This document shows positions 29,641-36,290 of a stretch of 64,000 nt of DNA, in pieces (position 1 is the first letter of the stretch; the number at the start of each line of letters is the position of its first letter). Origin of the DNA: Actinomycetes bacterium. GTDB taxonomy: Bacteria > Actinomycetota > Actinomycetes > Nanopelagicales > Nanopelagicaceae. The notes beneath the pieces were generated by a model that was given only the letters and a program-made list of their open reading frames with translations, had not been told where the DNA came from and did no database searches. The stretch spans positions 29,239 through 93,238 of the forward strand of contig JAYVQU010000039.1 of assembly GCA_043776875.1 (NCBI GenBank). Direction: 5' to 3'. A program made the position numbers and the translations under genes.

Positions 29641-31539
29641 TTACCCTACGGTAATCGTCACCAAGCTGCCACGTTTGACCATTGTGTTTGCTGCTGGTGA
29701 AACTCTTTTGACAACCGCTATCTTACTATTTCCAATTGTTACGACTCTTACCTTAAGCCCAAGGGACTCAAGCATCTCTTTACCAGCGATTGCTTCCATC
29801 GCGATAATAGTTTGTGGAATATATGTATAGCGAGATCCCCTTGAAATCAAAATAAAAACACTTCCACCCTTATTTGCAGTTGTACCACCGGTTGGTGCTT
29901 GCGAAATTACAGCAAGTTCTGGAACCACTTCGCTAAATGCATACCCGGTTTCAACATTAAACCCAGCTTGAGTCAATTCATTGAGGGCTTGTTCACCGCT
30001 TAGACCTAGATAAGAAACAAGCGCAACTTGTTCAATTCCCTTTGAAACAATTAGATCAACCTTTGCGGCTCGTTTCACAGATGAGCCAGCAGCAGGGGAG
30101 GTTGCAATCACAAATCCTTTTAGAATTTGCGCGTCAAATACTTCGTTAAGTTTGCCAATCACCAGTGGATATTTTGAAAGGGCAGATTGAGCCGCGTCAG
30201 GTGTTAAGCCAGTTGTAGTTGGAATTTTGTATCTTTCTGGCCCCTTTGAGATTATTAAATTAACGCTTCCGCTTACTTCCACCTTTCCACCCCCAGGTGG
30301 CTGCGATTCAATGACTTTTCCCTTTGGAATCTCTTCATCAAATCTGCTTTCAATAACTGCTGCAGTTAAACCCAAAGGCGCAAAGATCGAAATGGCTTCA
30401 TTGTAAGTACCGCCTACCGTGGATGGAACAACAACTTGTGAACCTGGACCTACTAATGTCCACCAGCCACCAACCCCGAGTGCAACTGCAAGAATCAAAG
30501 CAACCTTGCGGTTTCTGCGCACCCGCTTGCTTGCTTTCCGTTTCTTTTCTTCTCGTCGTTTAATTTCGCGCGTTGACTCTCTTAGTACGAATTCATCTAC
30601 CTTGACTGGTACCTCCTTAATTTTTTTATGAGCCTTTTCCCGGATTGGTTCAACTGGCAAATCCAAACCAAGATCCATTTGGTTCTTCTTTGGATCTAAA
30701 TTGATTTGAATCTGCTGCAATTTTTCTAGAAACTCACCAGCTGACCTTGGTCGGGAATCGGGATTTCTCGCCGTGGCACTAGCAATTAACTCATCTAATG
30801 ATTGTGGGATCTCTTTGCGTTTGCTTCTCAGGCGCGGAATTTCTTCATTGACATGCATGTATGCAATTTGAATTGGCGAGTCCGCTTCAAATGGCTTTTG
30901 GCCAGTAAACATTTCATAGGCAACAATTCCTACGGCATAAACGTCGCTACGCGAATCAGCAATTCCTCGCTGAACCTGTTCGGGGGATAGGTAAGACACA
31001 CTTCCCAAGATCACACTTGATTCGGCGGTCATTGATGAACCGATGAGCGCGCCTCGAGCAAGTCCAAAGTCTGCGACCTTGATTCGACCATCATGTGATA
31101 TCAAAATATTCTCTGGTTTGATATCTCTATGCACAATTCCCAATGCATGTGCTGCTGCCAGTGCACTAAGAATTGGTGTTAAGTAATTGATTGCATCTTT
31201 TATTTCAAACCTGCCGCGTTCCTTCAAATATTGACGTAAAGTATGACCTTCAATGAGTTCCATCACCAAGAAGACGGCCGGAATCCCATTTTGATTCCAG
31301 CCCTGATCTTGTACCGCCACGATGTTTGGGTGCGAAAGTGCAGCAGCAGCTTTTGCCTCACAAATAAACCGAGAAACAAAGACCTCATCTTGGGCAAGAT
31401 GAGGATGCATAATTTTGACCGCAACTTTACGATCTAGGCGGATATCAAGGCCTTCATAAATCGATGCCATGCCTCCATTGGCCATCTGACGCAGTAATTG
31501 GTAGCGCCCATCAATGAGTTCACCGGACAGATCGGACAT
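29641..31539 (-). CDS. PASTA-domain Ser/Thr protein kinase (Stk1/PknB/PknL type)
   Basis: GGMASIY, VAVK, HRDIKPEN, DFG, YLSPE; TM segment; several PASTA repeats. Start set to ATG 31539, 6 nt after TAAAAT. Confidence 0.94.
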   Translation of the reverse strand: MSDLSGELIDGRYQLLRQMANGGMASIYEGLDIRLDRKVAVKIMHPHLAQDEVFVSRFICEAKAAAALSHPNIVAVQDQGWNQNGIPAVFLVMELIEGHTLRQYLKERGRFEIKDAINYLTPILSALAAAHALGIVHRDIKPENILISHDGRIKVADFGLARGALIGSSMTAESSVILGSVSYLSPEQVQRGIADSRSDVYAVGIVAYEMFTGQKPFEADSPIQIAYMHVNEEIPRLRSKRKEIPQSLDELIASATARNPDSRPRSAGEFLEKLQQIQINLDPKKNQMDLGLDLPVEPIREKAHKKIKEVPVKVDEFVLRESTREIKRREEKKRKASKRVRRNRKVALILAVALGVGGWWTLVGPGSQVVVPSTVGGTYNEAISIFAPLGLTAAVIESRFDEEIPKGKVIESQPPGGGKVEVSGSVNLIISKGPERYKIPTTTGLTPDAAQSALSKYPLVIGKLNEVFDAQILKGFVIATSPAAGSSVKRAAKVDLIVSKGIEQVALVSYLGLSGEQALNELTQAGFNVETGYAFSEVVPELAVISQAPTGGTTANKGGSVFILISRGSRYTYIPQTIIAMEAIAGKEMLESLGLKVRVVTIGNSKIAVVKRVSPAANTMVKRGSLVTITVG

Positions 31540-31555
31540 ATGCAAATTTTACGGA

Positions 31556-31576
31556 GTGCACCTGTTGCAGGTGCAC
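31556..31576. terminator. GC-rich 9-bp hairpin, possible terminator of the riboswitch-kinase transcript or an operator on the kinase promoter
   Basis: GTGCACCTG-TTG-CAGGTGCAC is a perfect inverted repeat. There is no clear U-tract. Confidence 0.4.
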
Positions 31577-31594
31577 AGGGCGCGCCCAAACTCG

Positions 31595-32086
31595 TTATGA
31601 AGTGATTTTATACCCGCAATTTTCGCGGGTTTCATCATTTCGAAAGTGGATAGCTTGATCGATTTGCCATTGCCGCATTAGCTTCGCCAAATGTCCACCA
31701 TCTCGAGCTAGCACCCGTTGCAAACCTATTTCCGGCTCAACATCTAACCAATAAGTTGTTGCACCGGCTGCTCTAACAATACGCTGGGCCGCACCAACAC
31801 CTTCCAGAATGAGAACATCAGTTGGTGTTATTACCTGCCTTTGATCAAAGATCATGCTGTTCCAATTAAATTTCTGGACAGTGAACTCTCTTTTTTCTTT
31901 ATGGGCCGCTAGTATCCTTTTGAGAATTTGCGTCAAATCATCACTGAGCGCATCATCCCAGCCACTGTACAACTCATCCATATGAATGAGTTGTACAGTG
32001 GAAAAGCGGGAAAACTGCGCAGCAAACTTTGCTGCCAGGGTGGTCTTGCCGGCGCCGGCGGGACCATCAATAGCTAAGAGAATCAC
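31595..32086 (-). CDS. Uridine-kinase-like P-loop kinase; 5' end possibly frameshifted
   Basis: AIDGPAGAGKTT, HMDELY, ILEGVG, LQRVLARDG. An in-frame TAA lies just above TTG 32104; first GTG at 32086. Confidence 0.8.
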   Translation of the reverse strand: MILLAIDGPAGAGKTTLAAKFAAQFSRFSTVQLIHMDELYSGWDDALSDDLTQILKRILAAHKEKREFTVQKFNWNSMIFDQRQVITPTDVLILEGVGAAQRIVRAAGATTYWLDVEPEIGLQRVLARDGGHLAKLMRQWQIDQAIHFRNDETRENCGYKITS

Positions 32087-32132
32087 GCCAGCGTTTCCAA
32101 CCAATTAAGGCCGTAAACAAAGTTGTTGACAT
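32067..32132 (-). CDS. 21-aa ORF MSTTLFTALIGWKRWRDSLSY directly behind the riboswitch SD (leader peptide or frameshifted kinase N-terminus)
   Basis: AAAGGA-AATCATT-ATG at 32132; TGA at 32069-67; overlaps the kinase GTG out of frame. Confidence 0.45.
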   Translation of the reverse strand: MSTTLFTALIGWKRWRDSLSY

Positions 32133-32140
32133 AATGATTT

Positions 32141-32220
32141 CCTTTCCGCATCCGCATTACCGAATGGGTCAATCGGTCGGTCTGGATTTCAGACCCTCTC
32201 AGCCGTGGTGGCTCCCGTAA
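32141..32220 (-). ncRNA. TPP (THI-box)-like riboswitch, variant in P4/P5
   Basis: Minus strand reads CGGGAGC-CACCACGG-CTGAGA-GGGTCTGAAATCCAGACC-GACCG-ATTGACC-CATTCG-GTAATG-CGGATG-CGGAAAGG. P2, P3, CUGAGA, P3a and the L5 TAATG loop are present; the J4/5 UGA is absent. Confidence 0.75.
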
Positions 32221-32225
32221 CTAGT

Positions 32226-32235
32226 AGAGTAGCGT
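32226..32235. promoter_or_regulatory. Putative bidirectional promoter for riboswitch and crtYc
   Basis: Plus TAGCGT (32230-35) lies 6 nt before the crtYc GTG; minus TACTCT (32226-31) places a TSS at the aptamer 5' end. Confidence 0.55.
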
Positions 32236-32241
32236 TATCCC

Positions 32242-32568
32242 GTGCTCAAGTTTAGTTATTTGGCAATGATTGTCTTCACAATTGTTGGATCATTCTGGCT
32301 AGAATTGTTTTTAAAAGTTAAGGTAATCCAGCGGTACCGGCGTGCTTTTAAGGCAATCTTTCCGGTTTCCTTGATTTTCATTGCCTGGGATGCCTACGCA
32401 ATCAAAAGTGGGCATTGGCGCTTCGATGAGGCGCAAATTTTAGGAATCTACGGTCCATTTTCTATTCCGCTTGAGGAGTATCTATTTTTCACGGTTGTAC
32501 CCCTCGCCGCAATTATGACAATAGAAGCGGTTAGTGCAGTTAAAAAGCATTGGCGGATATACAAGTGA
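32242..32568 (+). CDS. crtYc: Heterodimeric lycopene cyclase subunit (CrtYc-like)
   Basis: Membrane protein with FIAWD.YAI..GHW.F and IPLEEYLFF. Confidence 0.85.
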   Translation: MLKFSYLAMIVFTIVGSFWLELFLKVKVIQRYRRAFKAIFPVSLIFIAWDAYAIKSGHWRFDEAQILGIYGPFSIPLEEYLFFTVVPLAAIMTIEAVSAVKKHWRIYK

Positions 32569-32867
32569 GATACACACAGTTGGCAATAGCTGCGGTTTTG
32601 ATTGCAATGACTGTTGACTTATTCGTTGTTAGGACGGCGTTACTTAAACGCAAAGTGTTCTGGAGTACATACGCGATCATAGTTGGATTTCAATTGCTCA
32701 CAAATTGGTGGCTCACCTCGCGCAACATTGTCATTTACCGCCCAGATGTAATCATTGGTCTAAGAATTGCTTCGGCCCCGGTAGAAGATTTGCTGTTTGG
32801 TTTTGCCCTGGTCTTAGGCGTGCTAGTTAATTGGATACGGCTAGGCGCTTCAGATAAGCAGCGCTAG
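32565..32867 (+). CDS. crtYd: Heterodimeric lycopene cyclase subunit (CrtYd-like)
   Basis: FQLLTNWWLT, APVEDLLFGF; GTGA overlap with the crtYc stop. Confidence 0.85.
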   Translation: MRYTQLAIAAVLIAMTVDLFVVRTALLKRKVFWSTYAIIVGFQLLTNWWLTSRNIVIYRPDVIIGLRIASAPVEDLLFGFALVLGVLVNWIRLGASDKQR

Positions 32868-33729
32868 CCACCCGAATTCGACGGGAAGTTGAAGTTTTTG
32901 CTCGCTTGTTGAAAATATCGTAATTGATCTTTTCTACCTCATCAACGATTCCACAATACAAAATACTCGCCGCCTGGATACATGGACGACTAGTCGGCTC
33001 TAGCATTTTAATTCCAGGAGCAGCTTCAGCCTGTAATCTTCTAACGCGCGCTATCTGAAACTTTAGCGCTTCGACAATTTCAGGAGTTCGTACTCGCGCT
33101 TCCAGCATTTCGCGCGTTACGCCAAATTGCGCAAGCTCTTTGATCGGCAAGTAGACGCGACCTCGGTCAAGATCTTCATTTACATCGCGGACAAAATTGG
33201 CTAACTGAAATGCGATACCTAATTTCTTAGCAGCTACAAAGGCATCATTGTGCAACGGTCCAAGTATGGGCACCATTTCAAGACCAATAACTGCAGCCGA
33301 TCCATGCACATATTCCAATAAATCTTCGTAGCTTTCATACGCCTGAATTGTTAGGTCCATTCTCATCGAATGCAGGAATGCGGCAAAGTGTTCATGTGGG
33401 ATAGCAAATCGGTTGACAGTATCTATTAGCGCCCGGCCAACGGCATCTTCACTAACTCCACGCTGGAGGTCTGACAAAACTTTGCTGCCCCAAGTATCTA
33501 AAACTTCGGTCTTTTCTGCCACCGTAAATTCAGAAGCCAAGTCATCTACGATTTCATCGGCATAGCGGGCAAAACCATACAAGGCATGAACAAAGGGCCG
33601 CTTTGCTTTGGGTAGTAAGAGTGTTGCTAGAAAATATGTTTTCCCATGCAAAGCATTGAGTCGTTTGCACTCTTGGTAAGATGCGCGAAGTTCTGGATCG
33701 GTTATGCCGGCTGCGGTAAGTTCATCCAC
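32827..33729 (-). CDS. crtB: Phytoene synthase
   Basis: YGFARYADEIVD, SMRMDL, AFQLANFVRDVNED..RGRVYLP. Confidence 0.95.
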   Translation of the reverse strand: MDELTAAGITDPELRASYQECKRLNALHGKTYFLATLLLPKAKRPFVHALYGFARYADEIVDDLASEFTVAEKTEVLDTWGSKVLSDLQRGVSEDAVGRALIDTVNRFAIPHEHFAAFLHSMRMDLTIQAYESYEDLLEYVHGSAAVIGLEMVPILGPLHNDAFVAAKKLGIAFQLANFVRDVNEDLDRGRVYLPIKELAQFGVTREMLEARVRTPEIVEALKFQIARVRRLQAEAAPGIKMLEPTSRPCIQAASILYCGIVDEVEKINYDIFNKRAKTSTSRRIRVASAAYLKRLAVSN

Positions 33730-35214
33730 CTACTTCACCGGACCCACTATGCGTTCGGCGGCTAATCGTCCGGAAATCAAGACCATCGGTACGCCTACGC
33801 CAGGTTGAGTTCCAGAACCAGCGAAGACGACGTTTTCGATTCCGGCTGCCATGTTGCGTGGTCTAAATGGACCAGTCTGGAAAAATGTGTGAGCGCTAGC
33901 AAATGGCGCACCAGCTTCCATGCCTTGTGCTTGCCAATCAAGCGGAGTGGTGAGAACTTCAGTCTCGATCGCATCACCAAAACCGGTGTAGCCACGTTGT
34001 TCGAGAGTTTCAACCATGTGGTCCCGAAAAGGTTTCCCTTGCTTGGTCCAATCAATATCGGCAGTTAAATTTGGGGTTGGGAAAAGCACATAGTATGAAT
34101 GTTTTCCAGCAGGCGCTAATGATGGGTCATCCTTTGATGGCAGCGTCACCAATATGCTTGGATCACTCATTAACTTCTTCTTGGTTATGAGTTCAGCAAA
34201 AATGCTATTCCAGGATTTACCAAAGTGAATGTTATGGTGGGCGGCAAAATCATATTGTCTCGATGATCCGACCAGCATAGTTACGCACGATGGTGAATAA
34301 TTTAGTCGTTTGACCGATTTCGGTGTTTTGCCTAATAGATCGCGCCAAGCTACTGGTAAATCTGGATTTAAAATAACGGCATCACATTCGATTCGCTTAC
34401 CATCTTGCGTCAATACCGCTTTTGCTCGACCGTTTACCACATCAACTTTAGAAACAGTAGTGCTGTACTTAAACTCCACCCCATGCTTTTGGGCAGCGGC
34501 AGCCATTGCTCGCGGAACTGCATGCATTCCACCCTTGGGAAAGAAAACCCCGTTTACTGAATCCATGTATGCAATGACGGCATATATTGCTAAAGCTTGC
34601 TGTGGGCTTACGCCGGCATACATAGCTTGGAATGAATAGACTTTCTGTAGTCGAGGATCCTTCATGAACTGATTAACTTTTGGAGACAACCGTCGAAAGC
34701 CGCCCAGGGCAATTAGCCGGGCCAGGTTTGGTGTCAATAGATTCAAGGGAGAGTCGATATTTCTATCGATGAAATCATTCATTTCATACTTGTATAACTT
34801 CGTTACAAAATCGACGTACTTTGCGTAACCAGCGGCTTCTGCCGGACTAATTTTGTCAGCGATCTCAGCTTCCATTTGCGCAGTGTTGGCATGCACATCA
34901 ATTTGAGATCCATCGTCGTAAAATGCGCGATACAACGGCGAAACCGGCATGAGTTCTAGCCAATCCTTCATATCCTCACCAACACTGTTGAAGGCGTCCT
35001 GGATGAGTGAAGGCATAGTCAAAACTGATGGGCCGGTGTCAAAGGAATAGCCATCTTTCTTAAGTACTCCATTTCGTCCACCAGGAACTGATTCGCGTTC
35101 AACTACGGTAACTTTGCGGCCAGCTCCTGCCAACCGTAACGCGGCGCTCAAACCAGCTAATCCGGCACCAACTATTACAACATGGTCAGTTGGCCCCTTT
35201 ACGCGTGCCGGCAT
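33730..35214 (-). CDS. crtI: Phytoene desaturase
   Basis: VGAGLAGL, FDTGPSVLTMP, FPKGGM, FAGSGTQPGVGVPMVLISG. Confidence 0.94.
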   Translation of the reverse strand: MPARVKGPTDHVVIVGAGLAGLSAALRLAGAGRKVTVVERESVPGGRNGVLKKDGYSFDTGPSVLTMPSLIQDAFNSVGEDMKDWLELMPVSPLYRAFYDDGSQIDVHANTAQMEAEIADKISPAEAAGYAKYVDFVTKLYKYEMNDFIDRNIDSPLNLLTPNLARLIALGGFRRLSPKVNQFMKDPRLQKVYSFQAMYAGVSPQQALAIYAVIAYMDSVNGVFFPKGGMHAVPRAMAAAAQKHGVEFKYSTTVSKVDVVNGRAKAVLTQDGKRIECDAVILNPDLPVAWRDLLGKTPKSVKRLNYSPSCVTMLVGSSRQYDFAAHHNIHFGKSWNSIFAELITKKKLMSDPSILVTLPSKDDPSLAPAGKHSYYVLFPTPNLTADIDWTKQGKPFRDHMVETLEQRGYTGFGDAIETEVLTTPLDWQAQGMEAGAPFASAHTFFQTGPFRPRNMAAGIENVVFAGSGTQPGVGVPMVLISGRLAAERIVGPVK

Positions 35215-36290
35215 TATGTGCTCCGCTGCGTTGCGATGTTTGCAAGTTCAACTAGTAATTCTTTTCCATCATTTGAAATGTAAGGTGATGCAAGCGCGGC
35301 AAGAGATTGTTGCGTTAATTTTTCAATCATCGCTTCCAGTTTTGCCTTGGCCCCGGTCTCGGTGATGATTTGCTGAAGCATTGCAATACCATTCGAATCC
35401 AAATCAGCTTTCCCAAAGTGCGCTTTGCTTGCTTGGCATTGGGCATCGGTTTGCTGCTCGCGCGAGAGCGCAATTAAAACCGTTTTCTTACCTTCTCGTA
35501 AATCATCTCCGGCGGGCTTGCCGGTAACTGATGGATCTCCAAAAACTCCTAACAAATCATCGCGCAACTGAAATGCCTCGCCAAGTGGCAGACCGTAAGC
35601 AGATAGTGCCTGGAAAATTTCGCTTTTTGGCGATTGTGCAATTGCTGCGCCAAGATGCAAGGGGCGCTCAATGGTGTATTTGCCTGACTTGTAGCGAGCA
35701 ATCTTCATGGAACGTTCGGTACTTGTACTTTTTCGAGTTTGTTCATGAATATCTAAAAACTGACCTGCCATTAATTCAACCCGCATTTCGTTGTAGTACG
35801 GGAACATCCGCGTTAATTTCTCACTAGTTAAACCGGAAGAGTTGAGCATTTTATCGCACCACACCAATGCTAAGTCGCCAAGTAGGACCGCGGCTGATAA
35901 ACCATATTGCGGGGCAAAGCCAGCTAATTGATCTTGCACATGGATGGATTCAAAGTGGCGATGGATTGAAGGTTTTCCACGACGAGTATCAGATCCATCC
36001 ATCAAATCATCATGAATTAATGCGCATGCTTGTAGCAACTCAAGACAAGCCATTGCACGTACTTCTGGTTTGCCAAGAGTTCCTTGTGCGGCAATTAATC
36101 CAGCATATGCAAACAATGGGCGAAGACGTTTTCCAGTATCCATCAAAAAAGAGTTAAGCGAATCACATACTGGGGCTAAATCAGCGGAAATCTCTTTCAG
36201 ATAAGCACTTTCGCGGTTGAGAAATATGCTCAACTCTTCCTCTATGGCAGAGCGAACACTGATTAACTCCGACTTTGGCGCCAAACTCAC
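35214..36290 (-). CDS. crtE: Polyprenyl (GGPP) diphosphate synthase
   Basis: GKRLRP, LIHDDLMD..DTRRG, GQFLD, FQLRDDLLG, DDLREGK. Confidence 0.9.
   Translation of the reverse strand: MSLAPKSELISVRSAIEEELSIFLNRESAYLKEISADLAPVCDSLNSFLMDTGKRLRPLFAYAGLIAAQGTLGKPEVRAMACLELLQACALIHDDLMDGSDTRRGKPSIHRHFESIHVQDQLAGFAPQYGLSAAVLLGDLALVWCDKMLNSSGLTSEKLTRMFPYYNEMRVELMAGQFLDIHEQTRKSTSTERSMKIARYKSGKYTIERPLHLGAAIAQSPKSEIFQALSAYGLPLGEAFQLRDDLLGVFGDPSVTGKPAGDDLREGKKTVLIALSREQQTDAQCQASKAHFGKADLDSNGIAMLQQIITETGAKAKLEAMIEKLTQQSLAALASPYISNDGKELLVELANIATQRST

What the first reader, a model, noticed from the sequence alone, without database searches (positions are those of the whole stretch)
32141..32220. TPP-riboswitch variant missing the pyrophosphate-sensing junction: candidate sensor for thiamine or a precursor
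Seen on the minus strand: P2 (CGGG/GACCG), P3, the invariant CUGAGA, an actinobacterial-style P3a hairpin (GGUCUG/CAGACC) and the L5 loop GUAAUG. Established: in TPP aptamers CUGAGA binds the aminopyrimidine and L5 docks on P3, while the J4/5 UGA and J5/4 CG bind the pyrophosphate via Mg2+. Here the canonical ACC-UGAU-P5-loop-P5-CGNA-GG reads ACC-CAUUCG-GUAAUG-CGGAUG-CGGAAAGG. The UGA is gone and replaced by a longer 6-bp stem, which looks maintained rather than decayed. The 3' end (GGAAAGGA) is the SD of the next ORF, and a -10 (TACTCT) puts the TSS at the aptamer 5' end, leaving little or no P1. Inference: a translational riboswitch with shifted specificity (thiamine, TMP or HMP) controlling a kinase.
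Basis: partly seen in the sequence, partly recalled or inferred. Interest (0 to 1): 0.8.

Follow-up and report, generated by a model that had tools for sequence, protein, structure and literature searches.

The report
Thiamine riboswitch variant lacking pyrophosphate pocket
This is a real, conserved relative of the vitamin-B1 (TPP) riboswitch in abundant freshwater actinobacteria. The part that normally reads the pyrophosphate has been replaced by a plain helix. It controls a thiamine uptake-and-trapping operon, and variants of this kind have already been mentioned briefly in the literature.

Summary
On the minus strand, 32146-32218 folds as a TPP-type aptamer. It scores 29.4 bits against RF00059, whose gathering score is 54.3. 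P2, P3, CUGAGA, P3a and the L5 loop GUAAUG are canonical. The J4/5 and J5/4 pyrophosphate pocket is replaced by a continuous helix, CCCAUUCG/CGGAUG(C)GG.

The change is not decay. The same architecture occurs in 16 further genera of Nanopelagicaceae (acI) besides Ca. Planktophila. The positions equivalent to G60 and C77-G78 covary there as Watson-Crick pairs.

In every relative, the element precedes a PnuT-like transporter followed by a 163-aa P-loop kinase. Canonical TPP aptamers in the same family precede thiO, thiC, cytX or a thiamine ABC importer.

This genome has deleted pnuT in frame, leaving a 21-codon ORF still coupled to the kinase. It also carries the ABC importer behind an aptamer that keeps the canonical pocket. 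No P1 is conserved, and a fixed TAnnnT box places the transcript start at P2.

Sampled Planktophila genomes keep ThiL but lack ThiE and TPK, and have no convincing ThiD. The kinase is therefore a candidate thiamine kinase.

Prior work had noted a THI element before acI pnuC-like genes (Kang 2017). McCown et al. 2017 mention P4-P5 variants that bind thiamin about as well as TMP and TPP. The ligand was not testable here.

The parts
32226..32231 (-). -10-like hexamer TACTCT (TAnnnT)
   Evidence: A TAnnnT hexamer ends 7-9 nt upstream of the C of CGGGAG in 66 of 67 distinct related elements, and exactly 8 nt upstream in 56 of them. The generic sigma-70 scan does not call it.
32218..32218 (-). Predicted transcription start (A), which is also the first nucleotide of P2
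   Evidence: The position just before CGGGAG is a purine in 67 of 67 sequences and lies 7 nt after the -10 box.
32146..32218 (-). Variant TPP-type aptamer made of P2, P3, CUGAGA, P3a, J2/4, a continuous P4/5 helix and L5
   Evidence: RF00059 29.4 bits. Model R1 97.1 bits. The minimum-free-energy fold equals the model structure. Covariation is shown.
32197..32202 (-). CUGAGA, the aminopyrimidine-binding J3/2 of TPP aptamers
   Evidence: UGAGA is invariant in 96 of 96 related elements, and so is the G-A of J2/3. The preceding C is invariant in 93 of 93 distinct sequences.
32179..32195 (-). P3a hairpin, GGUCUG-AAAUC-CAGACC
   Evidence: Five of its 6 pairs show compensatory changes, and 98-100% of cells are paired.
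32146..32168 (-). P4/5 helix CCCAUUCG / CGGAUG(C)GG with L5 GUAAUG (32155-32160). It replaces P4, the J4/5 and J5/4 loop, and P5.
   Evidence: Pairs at the positions equivalent to G60 and C77-G78 covary: CG 40, AU 29, GC 11 at one pair, and GU 35, GC 30, AU 28 at the next. Most other genera of the family have a perfect 8-bp helix with no bulge.
32140..32147 (-). Shine-Dalgarno region GGAAAGGA. Its first two G's are the 3' strand of P4.
   Evidence: GGAARGG is conserved in the alignment. A start codon follows 10-15 nt after the aligned element in 65 of 67 distinct sequences. The region is unpaired in the minimum-free-energy fold.
32067..32132 (-). 21-codon ORF (MSTTLFTALIGWKRWRDSLSY*), the in-frame remnant of pnuT
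   Evidence: Aligned with five relatives, it shows a deletion of about 535 bp that keeps the Pnu N- and C-termini and the stop codon that overlaps the kinase start. No Pnu homologue exists elsewhere in this genome.
31595..32086 (-). 163-aa P-loop kinase of the PRK/uridine-kinase fold; candidate thiamine kinase
   Evidence: Pfam PF00485 and NCBIfam PRK06547. Homologues are 163 aa long. The AlphaFold model has pLDDT 89.7, and its best fold matches are uridine-cytidine kinases at TM 0.79.

Best explanation
This is a P1-less member of the TPP-riboswitch class. Its aminopyrimidine-sensing arm (P2, P3 and CUGAGA) and the L5 docking loop are intact. The Mg2+/pyrophosphate pocket (J4/5 UGA and J5/4 CG) has been replaced by ordinary base pairs.

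It is transcribed from a promoter fixed 7 nt upstream, so the RNA starts at P2 and ends in the ribosome-binding site. In Nanopelagicaceae it controls an operon of PnuT, a thiamine facilitator, and a P-loop kinase. The kinase most likely makes TMP, which traps the vitamin, and ThiL then makes TPP.

The most likely mode of action is as follows. Any thiamine-family ligand, whether thiamine, TMP or TPP, binds through its pyrimidine ring with little regard to phosphorylation. This clamps the two helical arms together. The compact fold, which ends inside the Shine-Dalgarno region, then lowers translation initiation of the first ORF. Through the overlapping stop and start codons it also lowers translation of the kinase.

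In this genome pnuT has been deleted in frame. A thiamine ABC importer behind an aptamer that keeps the canonical pocket supplies the vitamin, and the variant switch now governs the kinase alone.

Shown here: the architecture, its conservation, the covariation, the gene association, the deletion and the pathway gaps. Inferred: the ligand range, the OFF direction, the steric mechanism and the kinase substrate.
For: **Architecture and covariation**
- establish the structure and its covariation.
- The family-wide search found a match in 117 of 121 genomes, covering 17 of 17 genera.
- All 32 fetched hits of 60 bits or more, from 16 genera, precede a Pnu gene.

**Canonical aptamers sit before other genes**
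- In the same family, canonical aptamers precede ThiO, ThiC, CytX or a thiamine ABC binding protein.
- In this genome, an aptamer that keeps the canonical pocket precedes the ABC importer.
- Among 125 non-Pnu TPP elements from other Actinomycetes, about 117 keep UG...CG.

**Start, end and coupling**
- No P1.
- Fixed -10 box and a purine at the predicted start.
- No terminator.
- Stop/start overlap with the kinase is kept after the deletion.

**Pathway context**
- ThiL in 16 of 16 genomes; TPK in 0 of 16; ThiE in 0 of 16; no convincing ThiD.
- The kinase is present in 11 of 11 importer-dependent or Pnu-less genomes checked, and absent from 4 of 4 genomes whose TPP elements precede thiO.

**Literature**
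- PnuT works by facilitated diffusion with trapping by kinases (PMC5749112).
- P4-P5 variants bind thiamin about as well as TMP and TPP, and sometimes occur together with canonical ones in one genome (PMC5473149).
- A THI element lies before the acI pnuC-like gene (PMC5301498).
Against: - No binding or expression data exist for this RNA, and the ligand range is borrowed from a one-paragraph 'in preparation' remark that may not cover this subtype.
- The minimum-free-energy fold leaves the Shine-Dalgarno sequence free, and no alternative pairing was found. The switching mechanism is therefore conjecture.
- A few equally zipped aptamers precede thiO (L139), thiC (L135) and cytX (L134, L162, L199) in other actinobacteria. 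The architecture is therefore not exclusive to Pnu and may still respond to TPP.
- The Pnu association rests on only about three independent lineages (families f1, f60 and f52).
- In Pnu-less genera the kinase is translationally coupled to crtB or crtE with no riboswitch, so its link to thiamine is phyletic only.
- Alignment A6 was fitted to the model, which inflates the pairing counts. The MAFFT alignment A2 gives the same picture.
Confidence: 0.55

Rival explanations
1. It is still a TPP-selective riboswitch. The pyrophosphate would be read in another way, for example by Mg2+ bridging to the backbone of the continuous helix or at the variable bulge. In that case the change is neutral structural drift within the class.
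For: Similarly zipped aptamers precede the classic TPP-regulated genes thiO and thiC in other actinobacteria (L139 and L135). TPP is the logical end-product signal for an uptake operon. The rest of the aptamer is canonical.
Against: The positions that contact pyrophosphate and Mg2+ in solved TPP aptamers (G60, C77 and G78; my own knowledge of the E. coli thiM structure) vary freely here as Watson-Crick pairs. The bulge is absent in most genera. This genome keeps the canonical pocket before its ABC importer, and other genomes of the family keep it before thiO, thiC, cytX and the ABC importer. This argues for purposeful differentiation. McCown 2017 reports loss of discrimination for P4-P5 variants.
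Confidence: 0.2
2. It senses a different aminopyrimidine compound, such as HMP or a thiamine breakdown product. A more exotic option is a cytosine nucleoside, with the Pnu protein and the uridine-kinase-like enzyme forming a salvage pair for that compound.
For: Only the pyrimidine pocket is conserved. The kinase's nearest folds are uridine-cytidine kinases, and databases label it uridine kinase. Pnu transporters exist for several substrates, for example PnuX behind FMN riboswitches.
Against: HMP is useless without ThiD and ThiE. ThiL without any source of TMP demands a thiamine kinase. The genome that lost Pnu carries a thiamine ABC importer instead, and in the family Pnu-variant genomes alternate with genomes that have ABC import or de novo synthesis. 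The kinase scores 32 bits against the udk model, whose cut-off is 220.
Confidence: 0.07
3. The RNA does not sense a ligand. It would be a conserved structured leader serving stability or ribosome standby, or, in this genome specifically, a relic left after the pnuT deletion.
For: No alternative pairing or expression platform can be seen, and the secondary structure forms without ligand. The transporter it served is gone here.
Against: The ligand-contacting CUGAGA, J2/3 and L5 are invariant across 17 genera while the helices covary. That is the signature of a working aptamer. The window copy scores 97 bits with no lesion. The deletion preserved the reading frame, the start site and the coupling to the kinase.
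Confidence: 0.08

Closest known systems
TPP riboswitch (THI element, Rfam RF00059)
   Same: It has the P2, P3 and CUGAGA pyrimidine-sensor arm, the optional P3a, J2/4, the L5 UAAU loop, and a thiamine gene context. It is the only Rfam family matched by the aptamer itself.
   Different: It scores 27-46 bits, against a gathering score of 54.3. The J4/5 (UGA) and J5/4 (CG) pyrophosphate pocket is replaced by covarying base pairs. There is no P1, and the transcript appears to start at P2.
TPP-riboswitch variants with a mutated pyrophosphate-binding core, mentioned by McCown et al. 2017 (RNA 23:995) as Roth et al., in preparation
   Same: The mutations lie in P4-P5. A canonical-pocket copy occurs in the same genome (here, before the ABC importer). 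The proposed consequence is the same: thiamin, TMP and TPP are no longer told apart.
   Different: No sequences, gene associations or taxa were published in the text I could read, so I cannot show that the acI type is among them. The exclusive Pnu-kinase context, the fully zipped helix and the absence of P1 are described here.
THI element upstream of pnuC-like (PnuT) genes in acI genomes (Kang et al. 2017, Sci Rep 7:42252)
   Same: This is the same locus type in the same lineage. It was found there with cmsearch and RF00059 and used to rename the transporter PnuT.
   Different: That paper treated it as an ordinary TPP riboswitch. It does not mention the altered P4/P5 or the co-transcribed kinase.
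PnuT-TPK (tnr3) operons behind TPP riboswitches, for example in Bacteroides thetaiotaomicron, and PnuC with the NadR kinase
   Same: A facilitator is paired with a kinase that traps the vitamin, under riboswitch control.
   Different: The trapping enzyme here is a 163-aa P-loop kinase of the PRK/UCK fold. It is not a thiamine pyrophosphokinase, which is absent (0 of 16 genomes), and not ThiK.
HMP-PP riboswitch (thiS motif)
   Same: It is a thiamine-pathway riboswitch that senses something other than TPP.
   Different: Its architecture is unrelated: a tiny aptamer embedded in a terminator. No Rfam match other than TPP falls on the aptamer, and there is no terminator.

Membership tests
TPP riboswitch (RF00059) | Score at or above Rfam's gathering threshold (54.3 bits) | tested here: not met
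   The window scores 29.4 bits. Genus relatives score 27.6-45.7 bits, and 0 of 26 genomes are over the cut-off.
TPP riboswitch (RF00059) | Pyrimidine-sensor arm: P2, J2/3, P3 and invariant CUGAGA | tested here: met
   CGGGAGCC...GGCUGAGAGG is invariant across the related elements.
TPP riboswitch (RF00059) | L5 loop (UAAU) closing P5, used for docking on P3 | tested here: met
   R-UAAUG is invariant in 96 of 96. The docking itself cannot be tested with these tools.
TPP riboswitch (RF00059) | Internal loop J4/5 (U-G-A) and J5/4 (C-G) forming the Mg2+/pyrophosphate pocket | tested here: not met
   It is replaced by an 8-bp helix whose equivalent positions covary as Watson-Crick pairs. About 117 of 125 non-Pnu actinobacterial TPP elements keep the loop.
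TPP riboswitch (RF00059) | P1 helix closing the three-way junction | tested here: not met
   In the canonical register only 27% of cells are paired, and 492 of 500 shuffles do at least as well. The promoter box places the transcript start at P2.
TPP riboswitch (RF00059) | Selective binding of TPP over TMP and thiamine | not testable with these tools
   This needs in-line probing or ITC.
P4-P5-mutated, thiamin-binding TPP variants (McCown et al. 2017) | [quoted passage not shown] | tested here: met
   The description is quoted from PMC5473149.
P4-P5-mutated, thiamin-binding TPP variants (McCown et al. 2017) | Can occur in the same genome as a canonical TPP riboswitch | tested here: met
   This genome has the variant (C39) and a canonical-pocket copy before the thiamine ABC importer (C5). 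The other 25 Planktophila genomes sampled have only the variant.
P4-P5-mutated, thiamin-binding TPP variants (McCown et al. 2017) | Binds thiamin with affinity similar to TMP and TPP | not testable with these tools
HMP-PP riboswitch (thiS motif) | Small aptamer embedded in an intrinsic terminator | tested here: not met
   No terminator-like site in 31500-32500. Only TPP among Rfam families matches the aptamer.
Pnu transporter family (PnuC/PnuT), for the gene that follows the element in relatives | Match to the PnuC family model above its cut-off | tested here: met
   TIGR01528 scores 61.8 and 73.2 bits against a cut-off of 42.45. Thiamine specificity is inferred from context only.
Known thiamine kinases (ThiK, APH fold; TPK) | APH or TPK catalytic domain | tested here: not met
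   The kinase matches PF00485 (PRK) and other P-loop models, with no APH or TPK domain. Its fold is closest to uridine-cytidine kinase. TPK PF04263 is found in 0 of 16 genomes.

The most novel reading that the evidence does not exclude
The acI element represents a distinct riboswitch subclass tuned to the unphosphorylated vitamin, or to the total thiamine pool. It works without P1 or a pyrophosphate pocket. It is paired with a previously unrecognised family of P-loop thiamine kinases. PnuT, this kinase and ThiL would then form a minimal three-gene vitamin-B1 salvage pathway in the most abundant freshwater bacteria.
Probability: 0.35. Interest if true: 0.65.

Novelty: new member of a known kind. 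Interest (0 to 1): 0.5.

Why it matters
**Annotation gap.** Standard Rfam annotation misses these elements, because all score below the gathering threshold. The vitamin-B1 regulon of acI, one of the dominant freshwater bacterial lineages and a thiamine auxotroph, therefore goes unannotated.

**A natural comparison.** The locus gives a clean, abundant, naturally replicated pair for asking how a riboswitch loses or changes discrimination between a vitamin and its phosphorylated cofactor. The variant and the canonical-pocket aptamer sit in the same genome.

**A missing enzyme.** The locus also points to a candidate for the missing thiamine kinase in organisms that have ThiL but lack ThiE, ThiK and TPK.

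**Limits.** The general idea of P4-P5 variants that bind thiamin was already stated by the Breaker laboratory in 2017. The element had also been seen upstream of acI pnuC-like genes. This sharpens and places a known phenomenon rather than discovering a new one.

Tried and rejected
- **Rfam at gathering thresholds:** no match in the whole window.
- **Canonical P1:** tested on 93 distinct sequences and rejected.
- **Sequestering helix or terminator as expression platform:** none found.
- **Generic sigma-70 scan:** it does not call the TACTCT box. Only family-wide positional conservation supports it.
- **Strain-specific decay or sequencing error:** rejected by conservation in 17 genera.
- **Counter-examples of canonical TPP aptamers before Pnu genes:** searched in 401 genomes of the phylum. 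The distant Pnu homologues found carry FMN riboswitches or none.
- **Variant element next to the kinase in Pnu-less genera:** none found with filters off.
- **PDB sequence search with the kinase:** nothing useful.
- **Earlier findings of this scan:** none for this genome.
- **Literature search for a full publication of the Roth et al. variant study:** only the 2017 remark was found in the held library.

Full report
**Observation**

On the minus strand, 32146-32218 reads ACGGGAGCC-ACCAC-GGCUGAGAGGGUCUG-AAAUC-CAGACCGACCG-AUUGA-CCCAUUCG-GUAAUG-CGGAUGCGG. Rfam reports nothing at gathering thresholds. A permissive scan gives RF00059 (TPP) at 32128-32228(-), with 29.4 bits against a gathering score of 54.3 and E 9e-4.

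The cmscan alignment shows a canonical P2, P3, CUGAGA, P3a and L5. It shows deletions exactly at the AU of J4/5 and the CG of J5/4.

RNAfold returns the proposed structure as the minimum-free-energy fold. It includes an 8-bp P4/5 helix with C32148 bulged.

**Is it maintained?**

The downstream P-loop kinase was found in 23 of 24 same-genus genomes. All 20 loci scanned carry the same TPP-like element, at 30.9-45.7 bits and always without the loop. Record titles identify the genus as Candidatus Planktophila, the acI-A lineage of Nanopelagicales.

A MAFFT alignment of 20 elements with a hand-drawn structure gives the following:
- 98.1% of cells are paired.
- 10 pairs show compensatory changes.
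- 0 of 500 shuffles reach the observed values.
- 4 of the 8 P4/5 pairs covary.

A covariance model (R1) found the element in 117 of 121 Nanopelagicaceae genomes, covering 17 of 17 genera. Across 93 distinct sequences, the pairs equivalent to G60 and C77-G78 of canonical aptamers read CG 40, AU 29, GC 11 at one position and GU 35, GC 30, AU 28 at the next. CUGAGA, J2/3 and UAAUG are invariant.

Most other genera have a perfect CCAGUUCG/CGAAUUGG helix with no bulge. So the bulged base is not a conserved ligand contact either.

One caveat applies. The large alignment was fitted to the model, and the sequences are related. The independent MAFFT alignment gives the same answer.

**Gene context**

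In every relative, the element is followed by a membrane protein of about 190-215 aa from the PnuC family (TIGR01528 above its cut-off). Next comes the kinase, whose start overlaps the Pnu stop codon.

Canonical aptamers in the same family (CCUGAUCCGG...CCGGCGUAGGGAG) precede ThiO, ThiC, CytX or a thiamine ABC binding protein.

I also fetched 127 TPP-type elements from a 401-genome sample of the class and added this genome's own canonical-pocket element, making 128. Of these, 125 precede non-Pnu genes (ThiO, ThiC, ThiE, CytX, ABC and others). About 117 of those keep the UG...CG pocket.

The three Pnu-linked elements in that sample (L133, L136, L144) do not keep the pocket. Five non-Pnu exceptions also lack it: three before CytX, one before ThiO and one before ThiC. 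The association with Pnu is therefore strong but not exclusive. It rests on about three independent lineages.

**This genome is special**

Alignment with five relatives shows a deletion of about 535 bp that removes almost all of pnuT. It leaves ATG(32132)-MSTTLFTA|LIGWKRWRDSLSY-TGA(32067). The frame, the riboswitch-adjacent start and the stop/start overlap with the kinase (GTG 32086) are all preserved.

A relative whose kinase is 80% identical still has the Pnu C-terminus. No Pnu homologue exists elsewhere in this genome.

Among 26 Planktophila genomes, this is the only one with a second TPP-like element. That element keeps ACCUGA...CAGGGA and precedes a thiamine ABC importer (TIGR01254, 235 bits). 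The importer plausibly made PnuT dispensable. The kinase remains necessary.

**Pathway logic**

In 16 near-complete Planktophila genomes the counts are as follows:

| Enzyme | Genomes with a match |
|---|---|
| ThiL | 16 of 16 (15 over the cut-off) |
| Thiamine pyrophosphokinase | 0 of 16 |
| ThiE | 0 of 16 over the cut-off |
| ThiD | only weak, partial pfkB-like hits |

TPP can then be made only from TMP, and TMP only from imported thiamine by an unidentified kinase.

The co-transcribed 163-aa protein is the obvious candidate:
- It is a P-loop kinase of the PRK/uridine-kinase family.
- Its model (pLDDT 89.7) is closest to uridine-cytidine kinases, at TM 0.79 and 16-22% identity.
- It is present in 11 of 11 family genomes that lack the Pnu variant and carry ABC-linked or thiC-linked canonical elements, or no detected element.
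- It is absent from 4 of 4 genomes whose TPP elements precede thiO.

In those Pnu-less genera it has no riboswitch and is translationally coupled to crtB or crtE. Its thiamine role therefore remains an inference.

PnuT is experimentally a facilitator that relies on trapping by phosphorylation (PMC5749112).

**Ends of the RNA**

A TAnnnT hexamer ends 7-9 nt before CGGGAG in 66 of 67 distinct sequences. The base just before CGGGAG is always a purine.

The canonical P1 register pairs in only 27% of cells, no better than shuffles.

The 3' strand of P4 runs straight into GGAARGG, and a start codon follows about 10-15 nt later. No terminator is present.

This fits a translational switch. However, the minimum-free-energy fold leaves the Shine-Dalgarno sequence unpaired and offers no alternative helix. 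Steric occlusion by the ligand-clamped fold is therefore my inference, not a result.

**What is already known**

Kang et al. 2017 found a THI element upstream of pnuC-like genes in all acI genomes and proposed that the transporter is PnuT.

McCown et al. 2017 state that a large collection of TPP variants mutated in the pyrophosphate-binding core or P4-P5 bind thiamin about as well as TMP and TPP. They also state that such variants sometimes share a genome with canonical ones, citing a study in preparation. I found no full publication of that study in the held library.

What this analysis adds:
- the exact architecture and its covariation;
- the lack of P1 and the fixed promoter;
- the near-exclusive link to Pnu-kinase operons in acI;
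- the in-frame pnuT deletion;
- the candidate kinase.

**Verdict**

This is a real, conserved variant of the TPP aptamer. It most likely reads the thiamine pool without regard to phosphorylation (probability about 0.55). TPP selectivity (0.2), another aminopyrimidine ligand (0.07) and no ligand at all (0.08) remain open.

Noticed in passing
window 31962-32001: There is a 20+20-nt inverted repeat with no spacer and 95% complementarity inside the kinase coding region (VQLIHMDELYSGW). It drew spurious miRNA-family hits in cmscan. The aligned relatives do not have the palindrome.
   Followed up: partly
own genome contig C5:36145-36254 (L001 1501-1610): This is a second TPP-like aptamer that keeps the canonical pocket (RF00059 42.6 bits, still below the gathering score). 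It lies upstream of a thiamine ABC importer (binding protein plus permease). It was not seen in the other 25 Planktophila genomes sampled.
   Followed up: yes
L134, L162, L199 (CytX); L139 (ThiO); L135 (ThiC): These high-GC actinobacterial TPP elements also lack the UG/CG pocket, yet they precede cytX, thiO or thiC. L142, L143 and L219 keep UG and CG but lack the A/U of J4/5. The cytX cases may be a second group of relaxed-specificity variants.
   Followed up: partly
L334, L339, L341, L343 (other Nanopelagicaceae genera): Where pnuT and the riboswitch are absent, the same kinase follows crtE or crtB directly, with overlapping stop and start codons. The carotenoid cluster, kinase and pknB neighbourhood is syntenic across the family.
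   Followed up: partly
window 32242-36290: This is a carotenoid gene cluster. crtE (35214-36290), crtI (33730-35214) and crtB (32827-33729) are on the minus strand. The split lycopene cyclase pair (32242-32568 and 32550-32867) is on the plus strand. The first cyclase gene starts only 24 nt from the aptamer's predicted 5' end.
   Followed up: no
L321, L323, L324, L326, L329, L331: Distant Pnu homologues in large-genome actinobacteria sit behind full-scoring FMN riboswitches (95-100 bits), consistent with PnuX/RibM riboflavin transporters.
   Followed up: no
L013-L023 upstream flanks: In several Planktophila species the TAA stop codon of crtB lies inside the conserved -10 hexamer of the riboswitch promoter (for example CGC-TAA-AGT). 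Read-through from the crt operon into the leader is therefore possible.
   Followed up: no
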